From NCBI GenBank assembly GCA_050273025.1, contig CP158635.1, positions 20,274,001-20,338,000 of the forward strand: a stretch of 64,000 nucleotides of DNA, given 5' to 3'. The stretch is from Cenococcum geophilum (Eukaryota). This document shows positions 3,001 through 57,600 of this stretch, one piece after another. A program made the translations under genes and the position numbers. The notes under the pieces were generated by a model. That model saw nothing but the letters and a program-made list of their open reading frames with translations. It did no database searches and was not told the DNA's origin. Position 1 is the stretch's first letter. Each line of letters begins with the position of its first letter.

Positions 3001-3883
3001 ATAGTCGGCGGAGTTAATATAGTAATTGCAATTGGAACTACCCTTAAGATAATTATAGACCGGCTTAAACTTCCTACTATCCCTATAATCGTATATACCG
3101 ACTTATATTCCCTCTACAAGTATTTAGTCAAGCTTGGTACTACAAAGGAGAAGCGTCTTATAATCAATATTATAGCACTTTAACAGTCCTATAAGCGTTA
3201 AAAACTCTTTAAGATCTAATGGATTAATAGCTAAGATAACCCAGTAGATATAATAATAAAGGTAAACCCAAATAAGGCACTAGAGACGTTTGTTAACATA
3301 AATACTCTATATATACGAGTTAAAGGTTAGGTTAAGAGGGAAATTTAGAGAAGTTAAGATCTTATAAAACTTCAACCGCTAGTTAAAGTTGTCTAATTAG
3401 TTAAATCCTTGCCAAGAGCGCCGCGCCTAATTAATTTAGGTAGCGGTGTGGACTTCTACTAACCAATCAGGATTTTCCATGCCCGGTATAGAAAATCGCC
3501 ATTAGCTCACTTACTACTAGCGTCTTAGCGGCCCACCCGTCTTCACATTATCCACCAAATTCTACCAACTACCGCATTATCGTATATCGTCTGGTTTTAT
3601 TGCATATTATCTAGTTTTATTACATATTGTCTAGTATTATTATATACTGTCTATTTATATATATATATATAGCAACTATAAAAAAAAGAGTTGCCAGTGT
3701 TAGAAATAAGGCAAGTTGCCGTCGCATAAAGCATATTGCCGTCACGTGTTGACGTGGCCCTAGCGTAGTAAGGAACCTTAAGTTCCTCACCCCTTTCCTC
3801 ATTCCTATTAATAAGAATTAACCAACATCACTGTAACCCTACTCGAGTAGTCGTTATTGGTAAGTCACCCTATGTTTCCAACA
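1..3883 (+). mobile_element. RIP-degraded Ty1/Copia LTR retrotransposon (integrase-RT-RNaseH plus 3' LTR 3698-3883); 5' part lies outside the window
   Basis: Relic peptides DTA(G)PD(G)LVP.LLVF(G)TYP (~1141), K(S)RLVI(Q)GYN..GKEVIL.QSP (~1975) and (W)S(S)TKSKR.T.SVLA.EI (~2940), in Copia domain order. A purine tract is followed by a TGTT...AACA LTR at 3698-3883. Many RIP stops. Confidence 0.9.
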
Positions 3884-4687
3884 TAAATAAATCTACTAGA
3901 GAGAATAACTTTATAATTTACGGCAATCTTATCTATTAGAGCTTAACTAAGAGTAAACGCGTTACTTAAAGCGTTCTAGCGTTAGAGATATATAAAATAG
4001 TTAGCGGAGTTAATATAGTAATTACAATTGGAACTACCCTAAAGATAATTATAGATCGACTTAAACTTCCTATTATCCCTATAATCGTATATACCAACTT
4101 ATATTCCCTCTATAAGTGTTTAATTAAGCTTAGTACTATAAAGGAGAAGCGCCTTATAATTAATATTATAGCACTTTATTAATCCTATAAATAGTAAAAA
4201 CTCTTTAAGATTTAATAGATTAATAGTTAAGATAATCTAGTAGATATAATAATAAAGGCAAACCTAAATAAGGCTCTAGAAACGTTTGTTAATACAAACA
4301 CTCTATATATATAAGTTAAAGGTTAGGTTAAAAGGGAGTAAGAGTATAATATTCTATAGACCCTAATTTCAACTAGCTAATTAGGATTTTCCATACCCGG
4401 TATAGAAAATTGCTATTAGCTCGCTTATAACTAGCGCCTTAGCGGCCCCAACACGATATCCACCCACGACTTTAAGCAATATTTATATATAGATGGCAAC
4501 TATAAAAGAAGAGTTGCTAGTGTTGGGAATAAGGCAAGCGGTTATTATATAACGCCGCGGCACTAGCGTAGCGAGGAGTCTTAGGCTCCTCGCCCTTTCT
4601 CATTCCAATTAAATAAGCTTTATTAACTAACATCACTATAACCTACTCAAGTAGTCGTTATTGGTGAGTCACCCTATATGACCAACA
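3884..4687 (+). mobile_element. 3' fragment of a second, related Copia copy (RNaseH end plus LTR 4521-4687), into which the first copy appears to have inserted
   Basis: 3887-4340 nearly repeats 2891-3345. LTR TGTTGGG...CCAACA is similar to 3698-3883. Confidence 0.85.
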
Positions 4688-5222: not shown

Positions 5223-6619
5223 TAGTAGTTAAGTAGATTTTTTATACGGTCTATATACTAGTTAGTAAGTAGCATCTTAAGGCGTTTTCTAACCCTATAT
5301 TTAATAATTAGAAGCTTTAATTATAGGATAAGCTTAAAGTTAATATAGACCACTTCCCTACTACTTAGGCTAAAATGGCCTATATCTTCGGCCGTACCGG
5401 CTGGGACGTATAGACGTACCTACGTCCGCGATACGTATAGGACTTAGCAGATCTCTTCCTCTCTAAAGAAGAGATAATTATTTACCTATCTTTTATTTAT
5501 AAGGACCCCTTTAAAGTATAAAACGCCCGACTTAATTATAAATGCCTAAATATAAAAACGATAGAGACCTTCTAGGCCTTTTAGACCCGCTTTTTACACC
5601 TAGCTAGCTAGGCTTAAATTCCTTAGGAAGATTTAATACTGGACCTATTTAATAAGCTTACCCTAGACCTGCAGCGAGCCGTATTACTAGTTTTTACTAC
5701 TATATAGACGCTAAAGGAACTTACGGACTAGTGCTTAGCTATTAACTAAGGCCTTTACTAAATTAAAGTATACGCTAAACGGTATAAAGCTAGAAACCCT
5801 TTAAGTTAGACTATAAGCAATATAAGAACGGCCCGTAATGCCCTAGCACGATCGGCAACCCCTATAGCACCACCCGTATAGCCCGCCGCCAATTTAGCAG
5901 CTAGCTATGCAGCTAGTCCTACTATAGGTCTAGTGAATGCTCGGCCTATATATAGGCCCTTAGTAATTAAGGAGCTTACTTCTCTTATAGTTAGAAAGGT
6001 CACCATATAAAGAATTGCCTAATAAACGCAAAAGTAGACGAGGTTCTATTAATTTAGGAGGACTCCGCTTCTGTATTAACTACTATAAGCTAAATAATAT
6101 AACCTATAAGGACTGCTATCCGCTTTCCTAACTTAATAAAACTTTAGCCCAAATAAGTAGAGCTAAGGTCTTTATAAAGCTTAATATCTACTAGGCCTTT
6201 TACTAAATTAGGATAAACCCTAAGTCTAAAAATCTTATTATATTTTAGACCTATTACGGAATATATAAATATAAGGTACTTCCTTTTAGACTAACTAATG
6301 GACTAGCTACGCACCAACGGTATATAAATAATGTACTCTTTAATTACTTAGACGACTTTTATACGGCCTATTTAGATAATATTATAATTTACTTTAAGAA
6401 TAAGCTAAAATACGAGGAGTATGTCTATAAAGTCCTATAACGGCTCTACGAGGCTAGCCTTTAGGTTAATATTAAGAAGTTAGAGTTTAGTATTAAGCGG
6501 ATAAAGTACCTAGGTTTTATTATTAGTATAAATGAAATTAAAACCGACTTAGAGAAGACGGCCGTAATTAACTAGTAGGCACCCCCACGGACCGTAAAGG
6601 GGGTATAATTATTTTTAGG

Positions 6620-6705
6620 GGCCGTCGAAAACGGATTCTGCACCTATACGTGGTGACGGCTACAAACCTAGGTCTTTAAAGTTCAGACCCAAAGCCAACG
6701 CAGAG
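6620..6705 (+). ncRNA. HDV-like self-cleaving ribozyme fold (RIP-mutated) at the 5' end of the non-LTR element
   Basis: P1 GGCCGTC 6620-26 / GACGGCT 6655-61 (G1.U wobble). P2 TTCTGC 6636-41 / GCAGAG 6700-05. P3 ACC/GGT. L3 TATACGT. P4 TAGGTCT/AGACCCA. J4/2 GCCAAC with candidate catalytic C6695. Confidence 0.8.
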
Positions 6706-7640
6706 ACGTTATATAGCGCGTGCAAGTAGGACCTAGTAGTTATATACGTCGTAGGGCGTAGTAAAAAGTTTTTACATAGGATAGTAAGATCTCAAAAACC
6801 ACTACTAACGGTACCCCTTTATAATATAGCCACTAGTTCTCCTACTAAGCACCTATATAATCTAACGTGGATGAACAGCTTTTAAAAGCATCCCCTAGCC
6901 CCCAATGGAAAGCATTAACGACCTCACATTAACGGACGAACGAGCGTACGAGCGAACGAACAAATAAGCAAATATACGGCCCCTCCTAACCCCCAGGGCA
7001 GTCGCCCGCGGAGCATGCGGTTACTCGCCGTTTTTAACTACCAAATACTACCTAGCAGCTTGGATTGCGACCCACAGTTTTCCCTATCTCCTTTCGACGG
7101 AGTAGTAACCCTTAGAGAGGGCCTAGCTGGGGCCTAGGCATAAAAGATACCTAAATAACACAATATCCCGCTCGCTTATTAGTATTACGGTGGTTAGAAC
7201 GGATAAATCCCCCTTACGCCTTTGATAGCTCTAGGGGGGGGGAGGCAAGGCGTATATAGCAGTGGTCTACATAAGAGATAGCATATAGGGGATGGGTAAG
7301 ATATAGGACACAAAGAGATAATAAGACACAGCAATCGATCAGCAAGGCCTAGCTGGGACGTAGTGAACCCTAGCTTTAATAAGCTAGAGAAGGAAGTAGT
7401 GGTTCCTAAGGAGTTCAAAACATTTAAGGAGGAGGACGTGTAGTAGGCCTGTAGGGCCGCTGCTACGTGCAAACATGGCAAATTGGGGTTTTTCATCCTA
7501 CTGAGGCTGCTTATAGGGTTTTTCCTCCCCCAACTGCAGGGTTTTCTTCATGTAAATTATAAGTTTTCCCCCCTATAACGGAGTAGTCTGCGTAGGCCAA
7601 GATAGGATCCGTATTAGACGTTAATCAAAGAACTACTACT
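6620..7640 (+). mobile_element. Non-autonomous non-LTR retroelement (SINE/SIDE-like, ~1.02 kb) inserted in the Gypsy RT
   Basis: 13-bp TSD aattatttttagg at 6607-6619 and 7641-7653, and an (ACT)3 tail. Removing the insert restores the GV(Q)(S)FLGFCNFY RT frame. No recognisable ORF. Confidence 0.88.
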
Positions 7641-10049
7641 AATTATTTTTAGGTTTTTGTAACTTCTACTAACGCTTTATTAAGAACTATAGTAGGATTA
7701 CCCGGCCTCTTAACCGTCTTACTAGAAAAGACTAGCCCTTTTACTTTAACGCTATATATAGGCAGGCCTTTAATAAGCTTAAGAAACGGCTAGTATTGGC
7801 TCCCCTATTTACCTATTTTAACCTAAAACGGCCTTTAATACTAGAAACTAATGCCTTAAACAGCGTAATAGCTAGTGTTTTTCCCCCAGAAGTAACCGGA
7901 TAAAGAGTAGCACCCTATTATATACTATTTAAAAACTATAATAGATGCTGAGCTAAACTACCACATCTATAATAAAGAAATGCTAGCTATTATCTCTAGC
8001 TTTTAGCACTGGTGTATATAGCTAGAGGGGACCCCTAAGCCAATTAAGGTAGTTTCAGATTATAAGGCTTTAGAATACTTTATAATAACTAAGGCCCTTA
8101 TAGCCTAGTAGGCACACTAGGTAAATACCCTATCTTAGTTTAACTTCTTAATTATATATAGACTAGGTACTATAAACCGTGCGGACGCTTTTATAAGGTA
8201 TAAGTAAAACCTAGATAACTAGATAGCTATAAAGATCTTATTATAGACCTAGACGCTACTATAACTAGAATACCTTAACCCCTAAATACGGGCAGAACTA
8301 AGCACGGACCCCCTAGGCGCTAAGATATATTTTATTAACTCCTCTAAACTTAACCTTATTAATAAACTACTATAGGCTAACTAAATAACCCCCTCTCTAT
8401 AGGAGTACCGCAAAAAGGTAAAGAACGTTACTAGCCTATAGTCCCTTAAAAACGGACTACTTAAGTACTAGAAACGGCTAGTAGTAGCTAAGGAATAGAA
8501 CTTATAGACCCAGCTTATTGCCAAAGCTTATACCTAGGTCTCTACGGCCTACCTTAGAAAAAAATAAGACCTGTAAGATTATTAGTAACCGCTACTACTA
8601 GCCTAGAATAGTTATAAATATTGACCGTTATATACGGAACTGTGATAGCTGCTATAGATCTATAATCCTATAAAATAAGACCCTAGGATTATTAAAACCA
8701 CTCCTAATACTATAACGCCCTTAGTAATATATCTTTATAGACTTTTATAAGCTACCTATAGACCATAACGAATATAATATAGTTATAATTCTAGTTAACC
8801 GCTTTAATAAGCGCCTGTTTTTAATCCTATATTATAAGAATATTAATGCTAAAGAAGCGGCCTAATTATATATCTACTACGTCTACTAAATCTATGGACT
8901 ACTAAATACTATTATATCCAATTATAGGCCGTAATTTATATTAGATTTCTAGAATAAGTTTACCTAGATTTTAGGCATTAAGCTAAAGCTTTTTACTATA
9001 TATCACCCTAGATAGATAGTTAGACGGAAATTATAAATTAATACTTAGATTAGAGACTTCGGCCCTTTATTAACTACTTTTAAAATAACTGGGCTAAACT
9101 ATTACCCTTAATAGACTATACCCAAGTAACCCTACCCTATAACTCTATAGGATTTGCCCCTATTTAACTAAAAATAGGATACTTACCCTATATAAGCTTT
9201 AACTAGGAAAGACTAGAAGAACCCCAGAATATATACAAAAAACTATCTTATAAGAAAGCACGGCAGTACGCTAAGCGCTTAGAAGAAGCCTAGATAGTAG
9301 CCCGTATAAATCTAAAAAAGGCCTAAAAATTAATATAATAATAGGTAAATAAGTATAGACAAGAGCCTGACTTTACCGTAAAAGATATAGTTTAGGTTAT
9401 AATAAAGAACTAGAAGACGGAACAACCTAGCTATAAGCTAAACTATTAAATAGCAAGACCGTATAAGGTTCTTAAAAAGATAGGCAATATATATAAAGTA
9501 AAGCTCCCAAATTTAATTAAAGTTTACCCTATTTTCTCTCTGGATAAACTACAGAAAGCTATAAATAACCTATTACCTAGACAAAAGAATAAACCTCCCC
9601 TGCTAATCTAAGTAAATAGCAATAATAAATAGGAAATTAAAGAAATACTGGCCTATAAGCTTATAAGGGGAATGTTAAAATATTATATTAAGTGGAAAGG
9701 GTACGACCTGGACCCCACTTAATACCCTATATAGAACTTTATAGGTAGTCCCTATAAGCTTTAAAAGTTTTATAGTCGTTACCCTAACAAACCCGGACCC
9801 CTAAAGTACCTTAATAAGTAGATAGAGTGCTAGAATAGCGAAGACAATAAGCTGCCCATTAATTATAAAGATAAGAATACCCTATAGATATAATATAGAC
9901 GTATAAAGCTTAAGGGCAGGCTTTTTTAGAAAAGGGGGGGGTAATATTACGGCGCTAGTAGAAACTAGTGGAAACTAGTAGAAACTAGTAAATTATATAG
10001 GCTTACGCGTCCCTCTTGCCGTGCTCGTGCCTTAATTAACTAAGTCGCT

Positions 10050-21300: not shown

Positions 21301-24300
21301 CTATATTTCTATAGTAAATATACTCCTAGTATAAAGTCTAATATATTTATTTCTATAACTATATCTAGTTTTAGTTAGTAGATTTTAAGGATTGGCTCCT
21401 AGGTAAATAGCTCTTTAAGTTCCTTAAATAGGTTCCTTTACTTATCTCCCTATACCTATAGTTCCTCTTTTTTTATAAACCTAGTAAATAGTTTAATATT
21501 CTTTAACTACTATGCTATAAACCTTTTATAGTAGTTACAAACCCCTAAAAATAACCTTAACTATGTTATATTCTCTAGTTCTTAATAACTTACTATAGCT
21601 TTAATCTTTTTTAGGTCTATACTAATATAACCTAGTTTAATAATAAATTTAATAAAATTAGTCTTCCTTATAAAGAACTTGTATTTCTTAATTACTACTA
21701 GCATCTATTTTTTTAATAGTCTCTTTAAGACCTATTTAACGTATTCCCTATATTTTTCCTTAGTTATTAAGTAGATAATAATATTGTTAAGGTATACTAT
21801 AATAAACTTATTAAGGTGTTCCCCTAATATACTATTAATCCGTTTCTAAAACGTTGCTAGTATATTTATAAGCCTAAATTATATTACTAATAGCTTATAT
21901 AATCCTTCCTTTAATTTAAAAGCTGCCTTTTATTTATTGCCTTCCTTAATTTTAATCTAATAGTACGCCTATCTTAGATCTATCTTTATAAAGATTTACG
22001 CATTACCTATTTAATCCTAAATTTCGCTAATTAAGGGTAAAGAATACCTATCCTTTTTAGTAATGCTATTTAACTGTCTATAGTTAATATATAGCCTAAG
22101 TTTTCCGTTTTTCTTTAGTATAAATAATACTAGATATCCTACTAATAACTATAATAGTTTAATATATCCCTTTTATAAGTTCTCCTAAATAAACTCCTTA
22201 AGTACTCTTAACTCCTCTTAAGTAAGCTTATAGGTTGGAAAGAACCTTAAACTTATTTCTAATTCTAACTCTATCTTATAGTCCTATACTATATAATTTA
22301 CTAGCCTTTTACTTTCTAGGCTCTATAGTTTCTTACTATATTTATAGTATCTTTTTAGTATATAACTTAAGCCTCGCTTAATCTCCTTATATATTACTTT
22401 AACTTAGTATTATACCTACTTAGTCTATTATTATATTCTATATTATTAAGTATTTCTAATATTAACCTAACCTATAATCTAATTAATCTTTAGATTATAT
22501 TTCTATAATTAAGGTATTCTTAATACTGCCTTATCCTATCTTAATAGTAGGATATTAAAAGATATCTTAATTTATCTTCCTTTAATAGTTATCTAAATAG
22601 GTCCTATTTTAAGGTTAATAATGCCTCCTCTATAGGCTATTAGATCTTCTAAAATTATAACTAATAGGTAAAATTGTTCCTTCTATCTATAAGGTAATCC
22701 TTTTTTTTTTAACTACTACTAGTAAAATATAGTTCCGTATTACCCTACTATCTATTTATACTTTAAACTGTTAATCTTACTAATTAACTTATAAATTTAG
22801 GTGTTATCCTTAAATTCCTTTAAGGGTCTAAGGGTTTACTACTAGCTCCCTCTAGTTTATAGGCCTCTACTTTTCCTAACTATTAGCTGCTTACCTTATA
22901 TACTTAGCTTACATTTTAGCTAATACCTAGTTCGCTTTTTGTCCTCTATATACTATAAATATATATTCTCTAAGTATTCTTCCGTAAGAAATCTTTCTAG
23001 TTAAAGTATTAAGTCTCCTAACTCCTAAACTTCTACTAAATGCCAGCCGTATATATACTTAGTATTTCTATATTATTGCTTATCTAGCGCCTAATATATC
23101 CTTATAGGGTATTTCCAATTCTTTTCTTTTAGATTTTTGTACATTTTGTATATATTATCTATATATGCAATCTATACTAATATATAATACACTAGGTGCT
23201 TTAAGTTAACTCTTAACTTATTTTTATCTTTAAGTTTAAACCTCTATTATATTAATCTAAACGTTATAACTTTATTTATAGGTATTAAAATATATCTCTT
23301 ACTTCTCTAGTCCTCTAATTATTTCTCTAAATCCTTTAATATTATAATTAAGGCTCCCCTAATATAAGTTATAGCTTTTTTAGTAATTAGGTGGTCCTAG
23401 ATAACTCTTTTATCTAACTATATATAGAAATCTTCCTTTTTATCATTATGTCGTTGCCTATACTACTTTTAGTATAGCTACTAGAGTATATACGGCTTGT
23501 CTGTAAGGAAGTATCTTCTTATTACTATATTATAATAGCCCTTTATATATTATTCTTTAAACCTAGTAGAGATCCCTAGATCCTCTTTATCTTCTAATTT
23601 AATAAGCTATTTAGCTCTTAGCGTGCCTACCCTAGGCCTATTAGTAATTCTTTATACTAGTGCTCTGTCCTTTATATAACCTAGTATACTAGTTCTCTAA
23701 TCTAGCTTTTGTTCTTACTATATAAGAATTCTCTATCTAAATTCCTCTATGTTTTCTTTTAGTTTTTGCCTTATAAGTAAATCCTTAAAGTCTTCTTACT
23801 TCTTAATTTTAGTTTATTTAATAGTCCTTATTTATATCTAGAAATCTTAGTTCTATAAAAATCTTAATCCTAAGCTTACTTCTATCTTAAGCTTGGCTTT
23901 AGCCTTAGTCTAACTAGGCTTCTTTAGTGTTCTTATCTCGTCTTAAGAGTCTTAAATCTTACTTATTTTACTTTAAGAATCTTATATCTTTAGGAAACTT
24001 CGTCCTAAGCTTATTTATATATTACTAAACTAAGCCGTTACTCTGCTCTATTAGTTATCGTCTATTATAAGTCCTTAAGCTTATCTTATCCTATCTTAGG
24101 AATCTTAAGCGTCTTATATCTTGTCTTAAGAATCTTAAGCCTTTAGCCTTTTGCCTTTATTAAGTGCCGAAGTAGTTTATTATCCTACTTCTCCTACATC
24201 TTATAAAGCAATAGATATTATATTTAGTAGGGTCTTAATCCCTACTAATATTCCTTATTCTATAGTAAAATTATCCTCTACCTTTTATATAATATCTCTA

Positions 24301-32508: not shown

Positions 32509-33910
32509 GGCTATTAAAATTGGACTTTATACCTATATAAGGGAACGGCTATAAACCTACTAGTCTTTAGAATTAGTAAGGATGGTATAAAAACATTATA
32601 TAGCGTATAGGTAGGAGCTAATATAGGAGTGTAAGGGGACTTTATAGATAGGGGGCTATAAGGCACGATTATAGGAATAGAATAGATTAGTAAGAGAGAC
32701 AAATCCTTAAGGAGGTAAGGCCTTTAGGATTGTAGAGACTATATACTATAAGTATATACCTTTAGTACGTAACTAGTAACTATCTAAGAGGCGCCTAGGG
32801 GTTGTCCTAAGGGTAACCTAAGGTAACTACAATAATATCCCTTATAGGGAGGGTATGACTACTCTTAGATAGGAAAGTTACAGTGCTGCCTATCTGTCTA
32901 TCTATCTATCCGTTAGTCGGTTAGTTGGTCGGTTAGTTAGTTATAATTAATTAGTAAAAAAAGAAGAAAAGAGTGTATTCCTATAGGTTTATAATATCTA
33001 AAAAGGAGGGAAGCTAAAGGCTCTATAAATATAGGAAAATGCTAAGGTACTAGGCGTAAGCCATTTTACCCTACTATACTAATAGTGGTTATTAAATGTT
33101 ATAGGATAGTAAGATTTTAAAACTACTACTATACCTTCTACCCTAGGTACCTATATAATCCTTATAGATAGGAGATAGACTAGATAGTATATAAGATCTA
33201 ATTAGAGGATATAAGAGGATACGCCCCTTTCTAGACCCTTAGGGACTAGACACCCCCGCCGAGCTAAAGGCAGTATATAGGTAAATTACTAAACCTTCCT
33301 ATTACCTCCTAGACCTTTTAAGATACCTTAAAAGTATAATATAAAAGATAGATATATTATAAAGGTAAATAGGCTAGGTAAAGGTAAAGCGCGTAAGACT
33401 AGCTAGAAGGTTATATTAAGGTTTTTCCCTACTAGGGAATTTTCCTATAAATAGAGAGTAGAAGCTTATATGGACCTAGAAAAGGGGCTAAATCGGGCAA
33501 TAAATACAACAAATAATAATAGATACGAGATAGATATTAATTAAAACGCCCTCTAATCTCTAATTAAAACTATTAATAGTACTTTATAATTAATAGATAA
33601 GTAAACAAATATACCCTTTCCTAACCCCTAGGGCAATCGCCCGCGGCAGTATATAGTTACTCGCTGTCTATACCGTATTCTACCTAGTAGCGTAGATAAT
33701 AACCCCCTAGAGTTTGCCCTATCTCTTCCCTATAGACTAGTTACGCCTAAAGAGGGCCTAGTAACTAGGGCTTAGGTATAAAAAATACCTAAAGTATATC
33801 TATATCCCGTTCGCCTTTTAGTATTATAGTTAAGAGGAGGGGGATATATAGGGGATGGTTAAAATATAAAGAAACTATAAATAAGTATATGTTATTATTT
33901 ATTTATTACT
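32509..33910 (+). mobile_element. Diverged, heavily RIPed relative of the 6620-7640 ribozyme-headed element, with a nested solo LTR and a LINE 3' segment (~33000-33515)
   Basis: 32509-32605 aligns with 6620-6720, and 33540-33890 aligns with 6880-7325. No TSD was found. Confidence 0.65.
32630..32846. repeat. Solo LTR (family H)
   Basis: TGTAAGGG...CCCTTATA with TSD aggag/gggag; second copy at 35438-35637. Confidence 0.8.
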
Positions 33911-35637
33911 TAACATCTAGTTTAGATCCTTATTAGGCCTACGCGGACTATACCTCAAATATATATAGGGAGAAAACTCTATAAGAAAACCCGTATTTTA
34001 TCTCTTTACCTTTTAGCCCTATCTATATAGCGCCTATAGGTGGCCTATAATTATCTATATCCTTACTATTAATCTCCCTAGTAACTGTTGCTGCCGTAAT
34101 AAGCTTACGGACGTGTTAGTATTTTAAATTTTGCTTTCCTACTATAGAGTCTCTAGGGAGTACCTATTCCCCCCTTACCTTTCTTTACTATTTTCTTTAT
34201 AACCTAAAACTAGTTTAGGATATTCTAGCTAATAAGCTACTAGGTAACCGCCTTAAGGCCTTGTTATATTAAGAGTATTATATTATAGTCCTCTATACTA
34301 GCTACTGGCAGTATTACCTCTTAACTAGTACGTAAGGAGTATACAAGAATTACATACTTTAGTATTTATCTTAACTAGCCGTACTTATACCTAGGGTTAC
34401 TTACTAAAACTCCTATTCTATAGAGCTAGTCTTTTAGTGCTATTACTCCTATCTTTAGTAGTATTACTATTATATTTTCTACCTTTATTAGCACTTAATA
34501 GAGTCCTTAGGCGTTTATCCTCTATAGTATTTACTATATTACAGCTTACTTTCTTTTCGCTTATCTTATTCTTATCCGCGTTAGCCTTTTATATATTTCC
34601 TTTACTTCTATATACGGGCCTAGGCTTTAGTACGGCGCTATTCCTTTTCTACTTTTCTTACTTACTTTACTAGTACTTTCTTCTCTGCTCTAGGATTGCT
34701 AAGGAGATCTTCCTTAGAGTCTTTCTATAACCGACTTAGGTATATCTTAGTATACTTTAAAACGTTATAGTCACGCTTCTTTAACACACTTTATATTATA
34801 GTAGCTTAGATATATACCAATAAGGGAGGTATATTCGTTTCTTTCTTAAGTAGTACTATATCTATTCGCTTATACCCACCTATTACTCTTTAAAGGTAGG
34901 CTACTTAGACCTTCTAAAGTAGCTTAAGAAGCAATATAGAGGGGCCCTTTTTAGTTTCTCTAAAATCCTAGATACTAGAGCCGTATATTATAGTTATGGC
35001 CTTTAAAAGTATAGGCTTTATATAGAGTTATATTATACCATATAGACGCACCTGCCGTAACCGGCTTAGCGTAGGCGAGGCGCCTATATTACGCAGTCGC
35101 CCCGCATAGAAGAACTATAGAATTTAGTCTTCTACTTTTTATCAGATACCTCTTACAGTTTATTACTGTTATTACGTTCCTATATACCCTTAGGGCCTTA
35201 GCGCCCTAACAAGTTAATAATCCTAGATAATACGCTAAACTATATCTAGCTCCTATAAGCCGCTTACTTTATATATACGCTTTACCAAAGCTTATTATCT
35301 ACCTATACTAAATACCCTTAGCCCTTAAACTAGAGCCTTAGATATAGATTAGTTACATTTTCTTATAAAATAAAATAGTTAGTATTTCTGTTACAGATCT
35401 TATACTATAGTGGTATAGATCGTTTTTTAGTTTATTTTATAAGGGGACTCTATAAATAGGGGGCTATAAGGCACAATTATAGGAATAGTTAAATTGTAGA
35501 GGAAATAAATCCTTAAGGAGGTAAGACGTCTAGGATTGTAAAGACTATATACTATAGGCACGTACCTCTGGTATATAACTAGTAATTATTTAAGAGATAT
35601 CTAGGAGTTGTTTTAAGGGTAACCTAAGGTAACCGCA
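33910..35637 (-). mobile_element. Remnant of a family-H LTR element (LTR 35438-35637 cut by element C2, plus degraded gag-like internal region)
   Basis: LTR similarity to 32630-32846 and a lysine/glutamate-rich RIPed reading frame on the minus strand. Domain identity is not certain. Confidence 0.45.
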
Positions 35638-42540: not shown

Positions 42541-45398
42541 TGTTACGGCTTGTACAAATGCCTCTGAACCAAAGCTTGTAGAATGCTGTATTACAAAGAT
42601 ACTAAGCTGAGGAGCGAAAGGAGGTTGAGGAAAGGACAGGTTTATATACACGAGCCAAGTCTCCAAGCGAGCCCCTGACTAGGCTGTATGTAGACGTCGC
42701 AGGGGCGGTGCCCCAGCGCCGTTACATCACCCCCCCCTTCCAAAAAAAGCCTGCCCTCAGGCTTTATCCCCTTGTAGAAAAGAAAGAGAAAGAAAAAAAA
42801 TCTAGCATCTGGCGCTCGATCGCGATGCCGGTTAACGTAGGACTTACAGCAGTCCTGCAGCTCCTACTGCTGTGGGGGTATATCGCTATACCTAGTTAAC
42901 GTGGGGCAGGCAGCCGTCATACAGCTCCTGCGAGGGGTATATCGCTATACCCAGTTGACGTAGGGCAGGCAGCCGTCCTGCAGCTCCTGCTGCTGCGAGA
43001 GGTATATCGCTAGGAGCCCTCCGTTGGTCGTCGTTCCTCCTCTAGAACTCCGGTACCTCCTAGCTCTACTATCCCCCCTTTTGTTATGGCGCGCCCCGAG
43101 CCATAAAAAAAGCCCCCCTAATCTCCCTCTTATAAAAAGGTAGGTGAAAAAGTTTTAATAAGGGTGGGAGGGTTAGGGAGTTGTAGCTCGTATATATATT
43201 AGCACGAGCTCTTGTCCGTTCGGTAGCAGTACGGTGCCAGCGACAGGTTGTTTGGGTGGCAGTATAATGCCAGCAACGGGGTCGTATTCCAGAGAGCAAA
43301 GCTCTCCCTTATATATAGTTAATACTGCAGGCAAAGCAGTAGAAGTCGTTTGTGGTGCTGCAGGCAGAGCAGCAGAAGTCAATTATGGTGCTGCAGGCGA
43401 GGCAGCAAGGTATTGTTTAGCTGCAGGCAAGGCAGCAGAGGTCCAGTGGCAGTACGGTGCTAGCGTCAGATGGTAGATAGTAGGCGTATCGGCGCTATCG
43501 TTGGTCGATTAATCGCAGGCGTATTGGCACGATCATTCGGTCGATTTTGCATGCGAGTCGCGTTCGGGTCGTATTCGAATCGCATTCGGGTCGCAGGCGT
43601 AACGGCACGATTATTATCCAGTTCGTCCAAATCAATTTCGTTGTCAAAGCTTACACAGTTCAGTATTAACCTCGTTGTCGAAGTGTACAAATGCCTAAGG
43701 TAAAGCTTGTATAACTTAGTATCAACCGTGGTCGTTCCTTAGTATGCGTAGCTTAGTGTTAGTTAAAAAGGATCACCGCGGGCGAAGAAGACGATCGAAT
43801 CAATAAGGGAGGCAGTCGATCGTTGATGAACTCGTACGGTCGTTGTCGAAGTCGCAATAGCAGGCGTATCGGCGCTATTGTTGTTAGATTTAGGTATCGA
43901 AAGAGGTATCAAGAAGGTACGTGTCGATATTTCGATTCTTGTCAACGACTGGCAAGACATGCTTTTATAATAGTAGGCTGTCTCGTTCGTAGAAGGTCGT
44001 ACAAATGGCTATCAAGAGAAACGCGTTAATAGTTCGTAAGAGGTCATATTAATAAACAGGCTCATCTACAGAGCTATTGGAGAGTGCCATAAATCGGAAT
44101 AAATCTCCTAATCTGTTCTCCTAATTAAGAGTGCTATAAATTACTTAAATTCTCCCCCAGATTCCTAGTACCCTGTACGTAGGACTATAATACTTGTAGA
44201 TGTATTCGGCCGTAAGATTAAGAGACTATCTAGGTCAATAGTAAGGTTCAGGTCAATTAAGTACGGTGGTTGTTAATAAGAACTTAACGTGTGTCTATAA
44301 GGCGTTTATAAATAAGTTAGAGAGTCGTGTCGCAGGTATATCGGCGTGATAGGTTATCGGGTTTACTTTCGAATTACGTTCAGGCCGTATTTAAATCGCA
44401 TTCGGATCGCAGGCGTATCGGCGCAATCGTTCGGTTAGTGGGACTGTAGGCGTATCGGCACAGTCGGTAATCGGGTTTGGGGGTTTGGGGTAGCAGTACG
44501 GTACTAGCATTAGGTCCTTCCCAATTAATTTCGTCTCTCCTTGTACAGCTCAGTATCAATTAGGGTGGTTATCGCAGCGTAGTAGCCAGAGGATAACGGG
44601 TAGGATTTATTCCAAAGGACTCCGCGGATAATATGCACCTACCGCCTAATGGCACAGCGCGGGTTATAAGTTAGCTTATTTTGGCCGTCGGCCCGAACCT
44701 AATGCATACTAGAGGACTTTGCGGACAATATGCACCTACTGCCCAATGGCACGGCGCGGGTTATGTCTCGGCTTGTCTTGGCCGACACTGCGGGATTAGT
44801 ACTGGGCTTAGTGACAGGATCACTATGTCGTTCTCCGCAGTACTAGGCTGAGTCTCAACCAAGGTCGTCTCTGTAGCTCGTACAACTCCGTGTTAGTTAA
44901 AAAGGTCGGGGGGGGTTTCTAGAGAGCCGCGCTCAATCTAGTAGGGTAGCAGTAGGCTGCAAGCCATTATGTCCTTAGCCATTGAAGTTGGCATTTAATC
45001 GTAACCATAGGAGACCTTCTAGCTGCTTGAGTACCGGCTCCCAGTAACTCAATAGTAGCGACTCGACGCGTTGACGACGCGCAGCTAGGGGTGTTCGACG
45101 CGAGTCCTCGAGGACCTATGGAACGGGGGTGGGAGATTATCCAGGCCTTCCCAGGCGAGGTAAAGAGGGAGCTCCAAACGAATGAAGTCCCCCCCGGGTG
45201 GGTGAGCTTAGTATAATGTTACGGCTCGTACAAATGCCTCTAAACCGAAGCTTGTAGAATGCTGTATTACGAAGATACTAAGCTAAGGAGCGGAAGGAGG
45301 TCGAGGAAAGGACAGGTCTATATACACGAGCCAAGTCTCCAAGCGAGCCCCTAACTAGGCTGCAGACGTCGCAGGGGCGGTGCCCTAGCGCCGTTATA
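42541..45398 (-). mobile_element. Non-autonomous LTR retroelement E (2.86 kb; LTRs 42541-42726 and 45217-45398), lightly RIPed, repetitive internal region
   Basis: TSD gttaa on both sides, PPT next to the left LTR, 10-nt self-priming PBS. No gag/pol motifs were recognised. Confidence 0.88.
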
Positions 45399-51619: not shown

Positions 51620-54600
51620 CTATATATATTGTATATATCATTTATATATATAATCTATACTAACGTATAATATGCTTAGTGTCTTAGGTTAACTCTTAGC
51701 TCGTTTTTATTTTTAAGTTTAAACCTTTCTTGTGTTAATCTAAGCGTTACAACTTTATTTATAGGTACTATAATTTACCTCTCGCTTCTCTAGTCCTCTA
51801 ATTACTTCTTTAGATCTTTTAACATTATAATTGAGGCTCCTTTAATATGACTTATAGCCTTCTCTATAATCGGGTAGTCTTAGATAACTTTTTCATCTAA
51901 CTATATATAGAAATCTTCCTACTTATTATTATATTGTTATCTATACCACTTTTAGTATATAGCCCTTTAAGTATATACGGCTTATCCGTAAGGAAGTATC
52001 TTCTTATTACTACGTTATAATAGCCTTTAGTGTGTTATTCCTTAAACCTAGTTAAAATCCCTAAATCCTCTTCTTATTCCAGTTCGGTAAGCTACTTAGC
52101 TCTTAGTATGCCTATCCTAGGCCTATTAGTAATCCTTTATATAGGTGCTCTATCCCTTATATAACCTAGTATACTAGATCTCTTGTCTAGTTTCTAATCT
52201 TGCTATAAGGTAATCCTTGCTCTAAATTCCTTTATAGTTTCTTTCTTTTCACGTCTTATAAGTAGATCCTTAAAGTCTTCTTACTTTTTAATCTTATTAA
52301 TAGTCCTTATTTATGTCTTAAAGTCTTAGTTCTATAGGATCCTTAATCCTAAGCTTGCTTCTATCTTAAGCTTTACTCCTACCTTAGGCTTAAGTATTCT
52401 TATCTCGTCTTAAGAGTCTTAAATCTTACTCCTCTTGTCTTAAGAGTCTTGTGCCTATAAAAAACTCTATCCTAAGCTTATTTGTATATCTTTAAACTAA
52501 GCTACTGCTCTGCTTTATTGGTTATCGTCCATTATAGGTCCTTAAGTTTGCCTTATCTCGTCTTAAGAATCTTAGTCGTCTCTTATCTCATCTTAAGAAT
52601 CTTAAGCCTTTGGCCTTTTGCCTTTATTAAGTGCCGAAGTAGTTCTCTACCCTACTTCTCTTATATCTCGCGAAGTGATAGACATCGTGTCTAGTAGGGT
52701 CTTAATCCCTACTAATATTCCTTACTCTATAGTGGAATTATCCTCTACCTCTTATATAACATCTTTAAGGTCTACATGCTTCTAGTAAGCTGCCTTCATT
52801 GCCTTATTATGGAATATTTCGCCTATATTAAATTCATTATCCTTAATATCCGATCTGTGAACTAGTTTATTAGTTCCTCTATATTTTAAGGATTTTAGCT
52901 CCTATAGCTAATAGCTTACGCTATACTTAGCGTCTTTATAAATTTAGCATATATTATTGTAATAAAACGTAAAACTTTTAATTAAACATTTTTTTATTCC
53001 TTGTAGTATACTATTATCCCTTTATACGTATATGTCTTCTACTGCGAGTCTAGTTCCCTTTATTATATAGTAACTCTAACTATCTTTATAATCCCTTATA
53101 AAGTAACATTATTTTCTATAATTTATATAAGCTCCGTTTTTAAACCACTAACTTTGCTATAAAGTCCGCCTAAACGTCTTCTACTACTAAGATCCCTAGT
53201 TTAGCCTTCGCTCCTTAGTCCTATAATTACTAAATCCTTAACCTCTAGGTTTCTATAGTTATTCTTTAAACTATTTCTTTTCTTTAGTACTACTTAGGTC
53301 TATTAGCTTTGCGCCATATTATAATTTCTAGCTTAGCTTTAGTTATTGCGTACTCTATATCTTATATAACTATAAAACTCTATCCTAACCTCTCTTAGCC
53401 TATTCCCTTTAGTAGATCCAATTGTTAATCTTAATTACTTAATCTATTAGTTCCCTTAGGGTATCCGCATCTTCTATTAGGATAATTACGTTCTAGACTT
53501 TAGCCTTAAGTCCCTATTTATACTATACTATAAGCGCCTTATTATTCTACTTAACTTATATAGCTAGCGTCTAAAACTGCGTTATATACTTAATTGCTAA
53601 GGTTTATTATATAATATCTTAGAGTTTTCTTTTCGCTATAGTTACCGCCTCTGGGTCTCCAAATATTTATATAAGTTGCTCCGTAAACCCTTCCTAGCTT
53701 AAGAATATAAACCGCATCTCTTAATTAGTAGTTGTTATTCTATTTACCTATATTTCTATAAAGTAAAGCTTAAACTACTTAAGTGCCCTTCCTAATAGGA
53801 ATAGTCCTGTATAGGCTATTCGATCCATAGGTATTAGTAACTTTACCCCTTCCTATATAACTTTAAAGTGCATTTAGGTAAGAAACCCCTTAAGCTTTAA
53901 TCTTTCTCCTAAGTACCTCTTAATTAATAGTAACTTAATCTTTACTGCTCTAATCCTATTAATCCTTTCCTCTAATACTATATTATTTGTTATTAACTAG
54001 TTAACTATTTCTTATAGCTGTTTAACCGTCATAGGTTGTTATAAGTTAGTATCTGCTATACTAGTATTACCTCCTAACCTTAAAGTAGTTACCGCCGTTA
54101 ATAGCTTTATAGTGGCTGCTTTTAGTAGCATATTATTTAACTTTCTATATTTAATACCGTAATTAGGTAGTAATTATATAACGGAACCTTATAGCAAGTA
54201 CTACGATAGGCTTATTATTAGGCTAGGTGTGTAGGTAATGCAAATTAAAGTTAATAACGTAATAATAACTAGTGGAGTGGTTGCCTAATAGATTAACTTT
54301 AATTATATTCTAAGAATTACTATAAGGAAGGAATTATCTAGGTAGGGACTAAGGGTCCTTAAATACACAACTATACTCCTATAAAATCCTTCTTGTATAT
54401 AATATACGTATACTTTATTTACTCTATTACGGATTATATAAATCCTATAGATTATATAGATTACGTTATATAACCTTAGCTACTATTCCTCGTTATATAG
54501 TTCTATTGGCTCTATTCTAAACCGTGCCTAAATTAACTAACTAGCTTCTTCCGACTCTTCTCTAAGTAGTCGTAATATTATACTTAAAGCGTCCGTAACA
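51620..54600 (-). mobile_element. 5' part of Gypsy family A copy A2 (gag region plus 5' LTR 54177-54600)
   Basis: Homologous to 23140-26124. Confidence 0.88.
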
Positions 54601-57600
54601 GGATACCTATCCTTTTAAGTAATGCTATTTAACTATCTATAGTTAATATATAGCCTAAGTTTTCTATTCTTCTTTAGTACGAATAATACTAGATAACCTA
54701 CTAATAACTATAATAGTCTAATATATCCCTTTTATAGGTTCTCCTAGATAAACTCTTTAAGTGCTCTTAACTCTTCTTAAGTAAGCTTATAGGTTAGAAA
54801 GAACCTTAGACTTATTCCTAGTTCTAACTCTATCTTATAATCCTATACTATATAATCTACTAGCTTTTTACTTTCTAGGCTCTATAGTTTTTTACTATAC
54901 TTATAGTATCTCTTTAGTATATAACTTAAGCCTTACTTAGTCTCTTTATATATCGCTCTAACTTAGTACTATACTAACTTAGTTTACTATTATATCTTAT
55001 AGTATTAAGTATCTTTAATATTAACCTAACCTATAATCTAATTAATCTTTAGATTATATTCCTATAACTAAGGTATACCTAATACTGCCTTATCCTATTC
55101 TAATAGTAGGATATTAAAAAATATCTTAATTTATCTCCCTTTAATGGTTATCTAAATAGGTCCTATTTTAAGATTAATAATTCCTCCTTTATAGGCTATT
55201 AGATCTCCTAAAATTATAACTAATAAGTAAGGTTATTCCTTCTATCTATAAGGTAATCCTATTCTTTTAACTGCTACTAGTAAGATATAGTTCCGTATTA
55301 CTCCACTATTTAATAGTACTTTAAACTGCTAATCTTACTATTTAACTTATAAATTTAGGTGTTATCCTTAAATTCCTTTAAGGGTTTAAGGCTCTACTAC
55401 TAGCTCCCTCTAGTTTTATAGACCTTTACTTTTCCTAACTATTAGCTGCTTAATCCTATTATACTTAGCTTACATTTTAGCTAATACCTAGTTCGCTTTT
55501 TATCCTTAATATACTATAGATATATATTCTCTAGGTATTCCTACTACTATTATCCGTCTAAGTATTCTTCTATAAGAAATTTTTCTAGTTAAAGTATTAA
55601 GTCTTCTAACTCCTAAACTTCTACTAAATGCCAGCTATATATATACTTAGTATTCCTATACTATTAATTATCTAGCGCCTAATATATCCTTATAGGGTAC
55701 TTCTAATTCTTTTTTTATTAGATTTTTATGCATTTTGTATATATTATTTACGTATACTATTTATAATAACGTATAGTATGCTAGGTACTTTAGGTTAACT
55801 CTTAGCTTATCTTTATCCTTAAGTTTAAACCTCTACCGTATTAATCTAAACGTTATAACCCTATTTATAGGTACTAAGATATACCTCTTACTTCTCTAGT
55901 CCTCTAATTATTCTTTTAGATCCTTTAATGTTATAATTAAGGCTCTCTTAATATAAGTTATAGCCTTTTTAGTAATTAGGTGGTCCTAGATAACTTATTT
56001 ATCTAACTATATATAAAAATCTTCCTACTTATTATTATATCGCTGCCTATACCACTTCTAGTATAGCTATTAGAGTATATATAGCTTATCTATAAGGAAG
56101 TATCTTCTTATTACTACGTTATAATAGCTTTTTATATATTATTTCTTAAATCTAGTAGGGATTCCTAGATCCTCTTCGTCTTCTAATTTAGTAAGCTACT
56201 TAGCTCTTAGCGTACCTACCCTAGGCCTATTAGTAATTCTTTATACTAGTGCTCTGTCCCTTATATAACCTAATATACTAAATCTCTAGTCTAGTTTCTA
56301 TTCTTACTATATAAGGATTCTCTGTTTAAATTCCTCTATATTTTTTTTTTGTTTTCGCCTTATAAGTAGATCCTTAAAGTCTTTTTACTTCTTAATCTTA
56401 GTTTATTTAATGGTCCTTATTTATATCTAGAAGTCTTAGTCCTATAGGATTTTTAATTCTAAGCTTGCTTCTATCTTAAGTTTAGCTCTAGCCTTAGTTT
56501 AACTAGGCTTTTTTAGTATTTAAATCTCGTTTTAAGAGTCTTAAATCTTACTTATTTTATCTTAAAAGTCTTATACCTTTAGGAAACTTCGACCTAAGCT
56601 TATTTATATATTACTAAACTAAGCTATTACTCTGCTCTATTAGTTATTGTCTATTATAGGTCCTTAAGCATATTTTATCCTATCTTGGGAATCTTAAGAG
56701 TCTCGTATCTTTTCTTAAGAATCTTAAGCCTGTGGCCTTTTGCCTTTATTAAGTGCTAAAGTAGTTCGCTATTTTATTTCTCTTATATCTTATAAAGCAA
56801 TAAATATTATATTTAGTAGGGTCTTAATCTCTATTAATATTCCCTATTCTATAGTAGAATTATTTTTTACCTCTTTTATAACATTTTTAATGTCTATATA
56901 CTCCTAATAAGCTACTTTTATTATCCTTAATATTCGATCTATAAACTAGTTTATTAGTTCCTCTAAACCCTAATAATTTTAGCTCCTATAGCTAATAGCT
57001 TATACTATACTTAGCGTCTTTATAGATTTAGTATACGTTATTATAATAAAACGCAAAACTCTTAATTAAATATTCTTTTGTTCCTTATAGTATACTATTA
57101 TCCCTTTATATATATATATCTTCTACTAGTCTTATTCCTTTTACTATATAATAACTTTAACTACTTCTATAGTCTTTAATATAATAACCCTATTTTCTAT
57201 AATTTATATAAGCTCTTTCTTTAAATTATTTTTCTTGCTATAGAGTCCGCCTAAACGTCTTCTACTATTAAGATCCCTAGTTTAGCCTTTGCTTCTTAGA
57301 CCTTTAATTACTTAATTCTCATTCTTTAGGTTTCTACAGTTGTTTATTTTATTTCTTATTTTCTTTAGTACCACTTAGGTCTATTAGCTTTACGCTATAC
57401 TATAGTTTCTAATTTTAACTTTATTAATGCGTACTTTGCGCCTTATATAACTATAAAACTCTATTCTAACCTTTTTTAGTCTGCTCTCTTTAGTAGATCC
57501 TATTATTAATTTTAATTACTTAATTAATTAAATCCCTAAGAGTATCTATATCTTCTATTAGGATAATTACGTCCTAGACTTTTACCTTAAGTCCTTACTT

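What the first reader, a model, noticed from the sequence alone, without database searches (positions are those of the whole stretch)
6620..7640. Ribozyme-headed non-coding retroelement: HDV-like fold starts exactly at the TSD-defined 5' end
Seen: a 1.02-kb insert with a 13-bp TSD and (ACT)n tail interrupts a Gypsy RT. Its first base (6620) is G1 of a complete nested double pseudoknot with antigenomic-HDV layout: P1 GGCCGTC/GACGGCT with a G.U wobble, P2 TTCTGC/GCAGAG, P3 ACC/GGT, 7-nt L3 TATACGT, 7-bp P4 and J4/2 GCCAAC. Only two RIP-type TpG>TpA reversals (6646, 6670) are needed to complete P1.1 (an unusual G-C/U-A or G-C/C-G pair rather than CC/GG) and P4. Established: HDV-like ribozymes cleave just 5' of G1 and define the 5' ends of R2 and several other non-LTR elements and of R2 SIDEs; TAC-repeat tails occur in Magnaporthe MGL/Mg-SINE. 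Inference: this is a fungal SINE/SIDE-like family that needs no Pol III head, excises itself from read-through transcripts by self-cleavage, and is copied by a Tad-like LINE.
Basis: partly seen in the sequence, partly recalled or inferred. Interest (0 to 1): 0.9.

Follow-up and report, generated by a model that had tools for sequence, protein, structure and literature searches.

The report
Ribozyme-headed fungal SINE-like retroposon family
A roughly 1,000-base non-coding jumping element of a fungus begins, at its very first base in every copy examined, with a fold of the hepatitis-delta self-cutting RNA type and ends with a tail borrowed from a LINE, so it probably trims its own RNA start instead of using the usual SINE promoter head.

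Summary
Window 6620-7640 is a dead, RIP-mutated copy of a ~1.0-kb non-coding non-LTR retroposon. It sits between the RT and RNase H parts of a Gypsy pol, with a 14-bp TSD and an (ACT)3 tail. A 23-base core of its head found at least 121 copies in metagenome contigs. In all of them homology stops exactly at G1, and 120 upstream flanks are distinct. Of 63 copies with enough downstream DNA, 44 have perfect 10-20-bp TSDs about 1 kb apart. The first 86 nt give P1 (7 bp, G.U at the cleavage site), P2, P3, a 7-nt L3, an 8-bp P4 and a CCAA J4/2. An L3-anchored descriptor hit 97 heads and only 1 other site in 829 kb. One sub-claim fails: A6646 is ancestral, so P1.1 has a single U-A pair. The last ~60 nt and a 3' hairpin are shared with a ~5.5-kb RT-bearing LINE that lacks the ribozyme head. 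Stranded RNA reads show sense transcripts whose ends pile up at +10/+11. Self-cleavage was not tested. The closest precedents are R2/R1 hybrid SIDEs and NARTc. I rate it a new variant of a known kind.

The parts
6606..6619 (+). upstream copy of the target-site duplication TAATTATTTTTAGG
   Evidence: Read directly. Gypsy copies without the insert end or resume here (loose ends and the joint 6620->7655).
6620..6705 (+). HDV-like ribozyme fold. P1 6620-6626/6655-6661; J1/2 6627-6635; P2 6636-6641/6700-6705; P3 6642-6644/6652-6654; L3 6645-6651; P1.1 U6647-A6662; P4 6668-6675/6685-6692; J4/2 6693-6699 with the putative catalytic C6695. Predicted cleavage lies between 6619 and 6620.
   Evidence: The RIP changes in this copy are at 6636, 6664, 6670, 6677, 6678 and 6692.
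6706..7538 (+). family-specific non-coding body
   Evidence: No conserved ORF. No Rfam or tRNA match in a clean copy. No similarity to the LINE.
6970..7020 (+). second ultra-conserved block of the family (consensus positions 351-400; window coordinates approximate), function unknown
   Evidence: Transversion rate is 0.002 per column against 0.02-0.06 in most of the body. The overlapping depth bin 6961-7011 is the deepest in the RNA contig run X15 and among the deepest in the two DNA runs. The block is not found outside copies of the family in 829 kb, apart from one partial copy.
7539..7631 (+). LINE-derived 3' module with a hairpin at 7586-7619 (GTCTG...TAGAC here; CAGAC in the family)
   Evidence: Alignment and consensus fold with LINE 3' ends, including one compensatory U-A/C-G pair. 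BLAST identity is 77-80% over the last 54-66 nt.
7632..7640 (+). (ACT)3 = (TAC)n simple-repeat tail
   Evidence: The same (TAC)n tail, or RIPed (TAT)n, occurs in the family.
7640..7653 (+). downstream copy of the target-site duplication
6249..6437 (+). RT domain fragment of the host Gypsy element (upstream flank)
   Evidence: RVT_1, E=1.1e-5, model positions 111-172.
7736..7900 (+). RNase H-like domain fragment of the host Gypsy element (downstream flank)
   Evidence: RT_RNaseH_2, E=2e-6.
33901..35351 (-). 3' part of a RIPed copy of the partner LINE family, ending ...GATGTTAAGTAATAAAT plus an A/T-rich tail
   Evidence: BLAST to the L009 LINE copy; 3' end listing; tail motif.

Best explanation
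Window 6620-7640 is one RIP-killed copy of a ~1.0-kb non-coding, non-autonomous non-LTR retroposon family built from three modules. Module 1 is an 86-nt HDV-like self-cleaving ribozyme whose G1 is the element's first base. Module 2 is a family-specific body. Module 3 is a ~60-95-nt 3' end with a hairpin and a (TAC)n/(AAT)n tail, copied from a ~5.5-kb RT-encoding LINE of the same genome. The proposed cycle is as follows. A master copy is transcribed on the sense strand, from an internal or nearby promoter or as part of a longer transcript (inferred). The ribozyme cuts just 5' of G1 and removes any upstream flank, so every RNA has the same 5' end (inferred from the fold and the copy boundaries). 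The LINE's protein recognises the shared 3' hairpin and tail, nicks an A/T-rich target and reverse-transcribes the whole RNA. This gives full-length ~1-kb copies with 10-20-bp duplications (the products are shown; the steps are inferred).
For: Boundary. In 121 of 121 copies homology starts at G1. Information content is 0.24 bits at -1 and 1.52 bits at +1, and the first base is G in 110 copies and A in 10. There are 120 distinct flanks, and five further heads behave the same way. Retroposon hallmarks. 44 of 63 copies with at least 1100 nt downstream have perfect 10-20-bp TSDs spaced 974-1049 nt. Tails are (TAC)n, (TAT)n or (AAT)n. An A/T-only target signal lies at -14..-10. Fold. All helices are present, and 97.6% of cells pair against 28-45% when partners are slid. 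An L3-anchored descriptor hit 97 heads and 1 other site in 829 kb, both strands. Consensus positions 51-100, which were not fixed by my search pattern, have the lowest transversion rate of the element, 0.001. Seven copies with 6-8-nt deletions in distal P4 still form a shorter hairpin. RF02682 aligns from model position 1 exactly at 6620. P1.1 precedent. A single-base-pair P1.1 exists in the active L1Tc ribozyme (PMC3185411, passages). RNA. In a stranded RNA run, sense depth was 151-2936 against 1-77 antisense inside the element. All 1038 of 1038 reads had the un-RIPed C at 6636. 548 fragment ends lay at 6629/6630 where depth was ~1000. Partner. The LINE family has collinear RVT_1 fragments, and relatives carry PF00078. 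It shares a 3' end, a hairpin with a U-A/C-G compensatory pair, and the tail motif.
Against: No cleavage assay was possible. L3 reads UAUACGU where a published search descriptor asks TYYHCGY, so position 2 does not fit (PMC4870747, supplement Fig. S13). P1.1 has only one Watson-Crick pair. The Rfam score is 18.6-20.4 bits against a gathering score of 44, and a clean copy (L016) gave no hit at E<=5. The RNA fragment ends pile at +10/+11, not at +1. I attribute this to loss of terminal bases in double-stranded cDNA libraries, which is recalled, not tested. P1, P3, L3 and half of P2 were fixed by my search pattern, so they cannot show covariation. The two covarying P4 pairs change by RIP-type transitions and are confounded. 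The strong sense bias of the RNA fits an own promoter, which could set the 5' end without catalysis.
Confidence: 0.75

Rival explanations
1. The head is an internal promoter or structured 5' leader that makes RNA polymerase start at the first base, as in many LINEs. On this view the HDV-like fold is not catalytic.
For: Sense RNA exceeds antisense about 40:1 in bin 6655-6705 (1501.7 against 37.9). That is hard to get from random read-through at more than 100 sites in both orientations. Fragment ends lie at +10/+11 rather than +1. L3 position 2 and P1.1 depart from the usual pattern. Rfam scores are below threshold.
Against: A promoter does not need a 7-bp P1 with G.U, P2, P3, P4 and CNRA in the right order starting at base 1. 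Such a match occurred once outside the family in 829 kb. P4 deletions that keep the helix and near-zero transversions across P4, J4/2 and P2' point to an RNA structure. The two roles can coexist, as published for Pr77/L1TcRz (PMC3383444, abstract).
Confidence: 0.17
2. The fold is a chance match at the end of an ordinary non-autonomous retroposon.
For: The loose descriptor gives hundreds of hits in this AT-rich window. A score of at least 40 arose in 2 of 60 shuffled windows.
Against: The match has to fall on one given base and strand. With the L3 motif included there is 1 non-family hit in about 1.66 Mb of strand scanned. The region is the most conserved part of the family.
Confidence: 0.02
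3. The element is an internally deleted derivative (a SIDE in the strict sense) of a LINE that itself carries this ribozyme, and that LINE was simply not sampled. This concerns the origin of the head and is compatible with the ribozyme reading.
For: Only about 0.83 Mb was searched. R2 SIDEs and NARTc arose by this route (PMC3414825, passages; PMC3185411, passages).
Against: In 0 of 63 copies with enough downstream DNA is the head followed by a LINE body. The only LINE sharing the 3' end starts with unrelated sequence and gives no conserved descriptor match at its 5' end in 3 copies. No other HDV-type hit lies at any LINE start in the sample.
Confidence: 0.2

Closest known systems
R2/R1 hybrid SIDEs of Drosophila (Eickbush and Eickbush 2012, PMC3414825; abstract and passages read)
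   Same: They are non-coding, not Pol III elements, with an HDV-like ribozyme at the 5' end joined to the 3' end of a different LINE (R1) that supplies the machinery and does not itself carry that ribozyme. They have TSDs typical of the partner.
   Different: Those elements sit only in the R1 site of 28S rRNA genes, ride on the rRNA transcript, and took their ribozyme from R2 of the same locus. Here the copies are dispersed at more than 120 A/T-rich sites, the host is a fungus, the source of the ribozyme is unknown, and there is no obvious host transcript.
NARTc/L1Tc (also RIME/ingi) of trypanosomes (PMC3185411, passages; PMC3383444, abstract)
   Same: They are dispersed non-autonomous non-LTR elements whose first 77 nt fold as an active HDV-like ribozyme cutting at +1, with P1.1 of a single base pair. 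The same stretch is also a promoter.
   Different: NARTc shares its head with its LINE. Here the partner LINE has another 5' end. A promoter role of this head is untested.
[quoted passage not shown]
   Same: Same fold, same position at the first base, and the same proposed role of releasing the element RNA from a longer transcript.
   Different: Those are protein-coding elements of animals. This one is non-coding and fungal.
Fungal 'HDV ribozyme variants' (Li and Breaker 2017, PMC5640933; passages read)
   Same: They are an HDV-class fold found in fungi.
   Different: That type has C-G at the cleavage site, an extra base between P2 and P3, and a loop E in P4. Here there is G.U, no extra base and a plain P4 helix. 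The paper says only 11 canonical fungal examples were known earlier and gives no retroposon context.
Fungal SINEs and the stringent SINE-LINE tail-sharing model (Mg-SINE/MGL recalled; tRNA- and 5S-derived AfuSINEs, PMC5063351, abstract only)
   Same: Short non-coding retroposons with TSDs and a 3' end that matches a LINE.
   Different: Those have a Pol III gene-derived head. This family has none and is about 1 kb long.

Membership tests
HDV-like self-cleaving ribozyme (class) | Nested double pseudoknot in the order P1-P2-P3-L3-P3'-P1'-P4-P2', with P1 of about 7 bp starting at the cleavage site | tested here: met
   P1 has 7 bp with G1.U, P2 6 bp, P3 3 bp, and P4 8 bp in un-RIPed copies. 97.6% of cells pair against 28-45% when partners are slid.
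HDV-like self-cleaving ribozyme (class) | Cytosine in J4/2 within CNRA just before P2' | tested here: met
   C6695-C-A-A, then one base, then P2'. The columns are at least 90% conserved.
HDV-like self-cleaving ribozyme (class) | L3 of 7-8 nt matching the published search string TYYHCGY (PMC4870747, supplement Fig. S13) | tested here: inconclusive
   TATACGT fits 6 of 7 positions, with A instead of Y at position 2. The U and the CG are kept. The same supplement says known ribozymes exist that do not fit the descriptor.
HDV-like self-cleaving ribozyme (class) | P1.1 of 1-2 bp between L3 and J1/4 | tested here: met
   One pair, U6647-A6662, invariant in 110 distinct rows (its L3 side was fixed by my search pattern). 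The second position is A.C. A single pair is reported for the active L1TcRz.
HDV-like self-cleaving ribozyme (class) | Self-cleavage 5' of G1 giving a 5'-OH end | not testable with these tools
   There is indirect evidence only: copy boundaries at G1 and RNA fragment ends at +10/+11.
Rfam RF02682 (HDV-F-prausnitzii) | Score at or above the gathering score of 44 bits | tested here: not met
   18.6 bits and 20.4 bits. The model aligns from position 1 at G1. This is not a member of that sequence family.
Fungal HDV variants (Li and Breaker 2017) | C-G at the cleavage site, an extra base between P2 and P3, and a loop E in P4 | tested here: not met
   Here there is G.U, no extra base and a regular P4 helix.
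Non-autonomous non-LTR retroposon | TSDs, a simple-repeat 3' tail, no coding capacity, and many dispersed copies | tested here: met
Non-autonomous non-LTR retroposon | 3' end shared with an RT-encoding LINE of the same genome | tested here: met
SINE in the strict sense | Head derived from a Pol III gene (tRNA, 5S, 7SL) with an internal promoter | tested here: not met
   No tRNA and no Rfam family in a clean copy.
SIDE in the strict sense (internal deletion of one LINE) | Both ends shared with the same autonomous element | tested here: not met
   Only the last 54-66 nt match the LINE. The LINE 5' end is unrelated. The sample was 0.83 Mb only.
Tad1-clade partner LINE | RT phylogeny and domain order of the Tad1 clade | not tested
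   Only RVT_1 fragments were seen. The resemblance of the motifs to Tad-like RTs is recalled.

The most novel reading that the evidence does not exclude
A self-cleaving ribozyme has taken the place of the Pol III promoter as the 5' module of a dispersed, high-copy SINE-type element. The head came from somewhere other than the partner LINE. It gives every transcript, whatever its start, the exact 5' end needed for full-length copying. It may double as a promoter, as Pr77 does. This would be the first such family in fungi, and one that is still transcribed.
Probability: 0.55. Interest if true: 0.7.

Novelty: new variant of a known kind. Interest (0 to 1): 0.62.

Why it matters
Ribozyme-defined 5' ends are known for animal and trypanosome non-LTR elements and for a few rDNA-bound SIDEs. 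A dispersed fungal family of more than 120 copies, with a canonical HDV-type head and a partner LINE that lacks it, would show two things. First, ribozyme modules can be shuffled onto LINE tails to make new parasites of LINEs. Second, precise 5' processing alone can stand in for a Pol III head. The family offers many natural variants (P4 deletions, RIP mutants) for testing what an HDV-like ribozyme tolerates. It is also a second, non-variant class of HDV ribozyme in fungi with a clear biological role.

Tried and rejected
Searches that gave nothing. No whole genome is held for the window. The scan's earlier notes hold no look-alike of the head or of the LINE 3' end. No intact LINE ORF exists in the 15 longest ORFs of the loci and window.

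Descriptor work. My first, loose descriptor was useless in this AT-rich DNA, giving 429 hits, so I tightened it. The window's second-best descriptor hit (minus strand, 4011-4172) is an AT-rich chance match without the U..CG loop.

Partner LINE. A conserved HDV-type fold at the LINE 5' end was sought in 3 copies and not found. A second LINE family with the GTTAATCAAAGA tail was sought. The 3 matches outside blast-defined SINE intervals were two unrelated sequences and one tail belonging to the insertion-split SINE copy in L021.

Copies and structure. A diverged subfamily that could give true covariation was sought. L067:8691 turned out to be a heavily RIPed ordinary copy. A nested MFE fold of a clean head gives P2 and P4 plus competing hairpins (z = -2.5), as expected for a pseudoknot, so it decides nothing.

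Literature. Webb and Luptak 2011, Webb 2009 and Ruminski 2011 are not held. What I say of them is recalled or taken from citing papers. Searches for a fungal ribozyme-headed SINE or LINE listed none. One search was spoiled because the term 'sine' also matched 'sinensis'.

Full report
**The locus**

Window 6620-7640 is flanked by TAATTATTTTTAGG at 6606-6619 and 7640-7653 and ends in ACTACTACT. The flanks are one LTR-retrotransposon pol gene read through the insert. RVT_1 lies at 6249-6437 (E=1.1e-5), RT_RNaseH_2 at 7736-7900 (E=2e-6), and a Tf2-type integrase SH3 at 9450-9608. Contigs of other Gypsy copies from two DNA runs and one RNA-library run join 6620 directly to 7655. Loose ends at 6619 and 7640 continue with Gypsy sequence. 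The insertion and its limits are therefore real.

**The fold at the first base**

From 6620 the sequence gives the following elements:
- P1 GGCCGTC/GACGGCT, with a G.U pair at the cleavage site
- a 9-nt J1/2
- P2 TTCTGC/GCAGAG
- P3 ACC/GGT
- L3 TATACGT
- a P4 hairpin
- J4/2 G-C6695-C-A-A-C

A strict descriptor of my own found 18 matches in the window on both strands, and this one scored best. Block-wise dinucleotide shuffles reached its score anywhere in the window in 2 of 60 trials. With the loop motif T-N3-4-CG-Y added, about 829 kb of window plus related loci, both strands, gave 97 matches at heads of this family and 1 elsewhere. A chance match on the one base fixed by the TSD is therefore of the order of one in a million.

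Rfam gives only a weak match to RF02682. It scored 18.6 bits here and 20.4 bits in a clean copy, against a gathering score of 44. The model's position 1 does align exactly at 6620. One clean copy gave no hit at E<=5.

**The family**

No genome is held for the window. Aligned on that anchor, all 121 lose similarity exactly upstream of G1. Information content is 0.03-0.24 bits at positions -8 to -1 and 1.3-2.0 bits over most of +1 to +20, apart from a polymorphic A/T at +12. The first base is G in 110 copies, A in 10 (a RIP-type change) and C in 1. The 40-nt upstream flanks fall into 120 distinct groups, with only L035 and L049 sharing one.

Only 63 copies have at least 1100 nt of downstream DNA in hand. 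They break down as follows:
- 54 are simple ~1-kb elements.
- 4 are full length with an insertion or a neighbouring copy.
- 5 are interrupted.
- None has a different body behind the head.

Forty-four copies have a perfect TSD of 10-20 bp that abuts G1 and recurs 974-1049 nt downstream, after (TAC)n, (TAT)n or (AAT)n. Positions -14 to -10 are almost purely A/T, which fits a nick-site preference at the start of the TSD. Five more heads in the same loci lack the exact 23-mer because of RIP or a deletion. They also start at G1 behind unrelated flanks.

**State of the window copy**

Against a de-RIPed family reference the window copy is 83.3% identical, and 113 of 166 substitutions are C>T or G>A. 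Six of these lie in the ribozyme:
- 6636: the P2 pair C-G becomes U.G
- 6664: in J1/4
- 6670 and 6692: two P4 pairs are broken
- 6677 and 6678: in the P4 loop

The reversal at 6646 is not, because all five heads found without any constraint on L3 have A there. My main set cannot speak to that base. P1.1 is thus one U-A pair beside an A.C. A single-pair P1.1 is described for the active L1Tc ribozyme (PMC3185411, passages).

**Support for the structure within the family**

On the 122-row alignment A1, 97.6% of pair cells are standard pairs, against 28-45% when partners are slid by 1-3 columns. This figure has limits. P3, L3, most of P1' and most of P2 were fixed by my search pattern. The copies are close kin, and the only pairs with changes on both sides (P4 columns 52-76 and 54-72, G-C to A-U) change by RIP-type transitions.

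Two other observations carry more weight. Columns 51-100 (J1/4, P4, J4/2, P2'), which the pattern did not fix, have the lowest rate of non-RIP changes in the element: 0.001 transversions per column against 0.02-0.06 in most of the body. Seven copies (L007, L008, L012, L014, L052, L102, L108) carry 6-8-nt deletions in distal P4 that leave a shorter, still paired hairpin. Another copy, L045, has a larger P4 deletion that I did not assess for pairing. A sub-family with one G deleted in P4 turns the opposite base into a bulge. P4 length is known to vary among HDV-like ribozymes (PMC3774820, passages).

**No coding capacity and no Pol III head**

The longest open frames differ in frame between little-RIPed copies and are broken by indels. 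A clean copy has no tRNA and no Rfam family.

**RNA**

I laid a stranded RNA run of raw reads (X21) on 6400-7900. It gave no reads on the Gypsy flanks. Inside the element it gave 151-2936 reads per bin with the first mate on the minus strand, against 1-77 on the plus strand. In the usual stranded libraries this means sense RNA. The reads come from other, un-RIPed copies. All 1038 of 1038 read C at 6636, and 92% run on into sequence unlike this copy, for example CGCACAGCGTGCG... behind 6709. This matches the un-RIPed loci. The family is therefore transcribed.

Fragment ends pile up at 6629 (311 ends) and 6630 (237 ends), where depth is about 1000. That is 10-11 nt inside the predicted cut, not at it. 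Double-stranded cDNA libraries are known to lose the last bases of an RNA's 5' end. This is recalled and not tested here. On that basis the pile-up fits an RNA that starts at or near G1, but it cannot tell a ribozyme cut from a transcription start. The roughly 40:1 sense bias argues that the element has a promoter of its own rather than relying only on read-through.

**The partner LINE**

BLAST with a clean copy found matches to only its last ~60 nt at other places. These are the 3' ends of a RIPed repeat family. It can be followed for 3.65 kb in L009 and a further 1.9 kb at the 5' side in L048, L058 and L023, giving about 5.5 kb in all. A copy lies in the window at 33901-35351 on the minus strand.

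Evidence that this family encodes an RT:
- Of 103 stop-free fragments, 4 hit RVT_1, collinearly in two copies (model 5-34 and 68-97; best E=8.9e-4).
- One 45-residue fragment found 189 database proteins at E<=0.001. All are short, broken fragments of 80-211 aa. Fourteen of the 120 listed carry PF00078, and one bears the source name 'Cenococcum geophilum 1.58'.

The LINE ends ...GACGTTAAGCAATGAAT plus (AAT)n or (TAT)n. That motif occurs in 12 places outside the short element and in 7 copies of one of its sub-families. The main sub-family (44 copies) ends GACGTTAATCAAAGA plus (TAC)n. An alignment of 8 short-element and 6 LINE 3' ends folds into a shared hairpin. In its outer stem, U-A (9 sequences) is replaced by C-G (5 sequences).

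Only these last 54-66 nt match by BLAST. The LINE starts with unrelated sequence (GGAGCTCTTGCTGCACC...) behind four different flanks. It gives no conserved HDV-type match there in 3 copies tested.

**Comparison with what is known**

The architecture is a ribozyme head on the tail of a LINE that lacks the ribozyme. This is what Eickbush and Eickbush called R2/R1 hybrid SIDEs (PMC3414825). Those are confined to 28S genes and to the rRNA transcript. NARTc of Trypanosoma cruzi is dispersed and ribozyme-headed, but it shares its head with L1Tc. The fungal HDV variants of Li and Breaker differ in three defining features, and that paper notes only 11 canonical fungal examples before it. My literature searches listed no fungal ribozyme-headed SINE or LINE. 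The library is limited and three key papers are not held. Earlier notes of this scan describe the variant type in other fungi and LINE families in this genome, but not this family.

**Verdict**

The retroposon family, its exact 5' boundary at G1, its LINE-derived tail and its transcription are shown. The HDV-type fold is strongly supported. Catalysis is inferred. I put 0.75 on the full reading, rate it a new variant of a known kind, and give it an interest of about 0.6.

Noticed in passing
window 6970-7020 (approximate; family consensus 351-400): A GC-rich block (...CCTAACCCCCAGGGCAGTCGCCCGCGGAGCATGCGG...) is as conserved as the ribozyme, with a transversion rate of 0.002 and unusually few RIP transitions (0.034). 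The overlapping depth bin 6961-7011 is the deepest in the RNA contig run X15 and among the deepest in the two DNA runs. Its role is unknown; it could be a promoter, a protein-binding site or a structure.
   Followed up: partly
window 33101-33832 (+) and 33901-35351 (-): A degenerate partial relative of the short element (69-74% identity to its middle part by BLAST, no head found) lies 70 bp from the 3' end of a RIPed copy of the partner LINE. The two point towards each other.
   Followed up: partly
L009:10660-10740, L035:5862-6528, L049:6041-6563: A 5'-truncated LINE copy (L009) and two copies of the short element (L035, L049) all begin right after the same nucleotide (...ATATTCT|) of one 670-bp repeat. 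This may be a preferred target site or a duplicated segment.
   Followed up: no
L048:6200-9313 and window 21749-23813, 51620-53142, 54595-57220, 63337-63998: An abundant ~3.1-kb repeat ends in many loci at the equivalent of L048 positions 9298-9312 (coordinates 3099-3113 of the L048:6200-11300 query). In L048 the LINE start follows within about 20 bases of that end. The other LINE 5' ends examined (L058, L023, L009) have different upstream flanks. The window holds at least four copies of this repeat.
   Followed up: no
window 6627-6635: The 5' strand of P1 can instead pair with J1/2 (CCGT...ACGG). This 4-bp hairpin appears in the nested MFE fold and would compete with P1, so it is a possible folding switch.
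   Followed up: no
window 43459-43660 (+): This is the only HDV-type descriptor match outside the family in 829 kb. It has a low score (33), P1 reads GCTAGCG and the loop reads TCGGCGC. It is probably chance.
   Followed up: no
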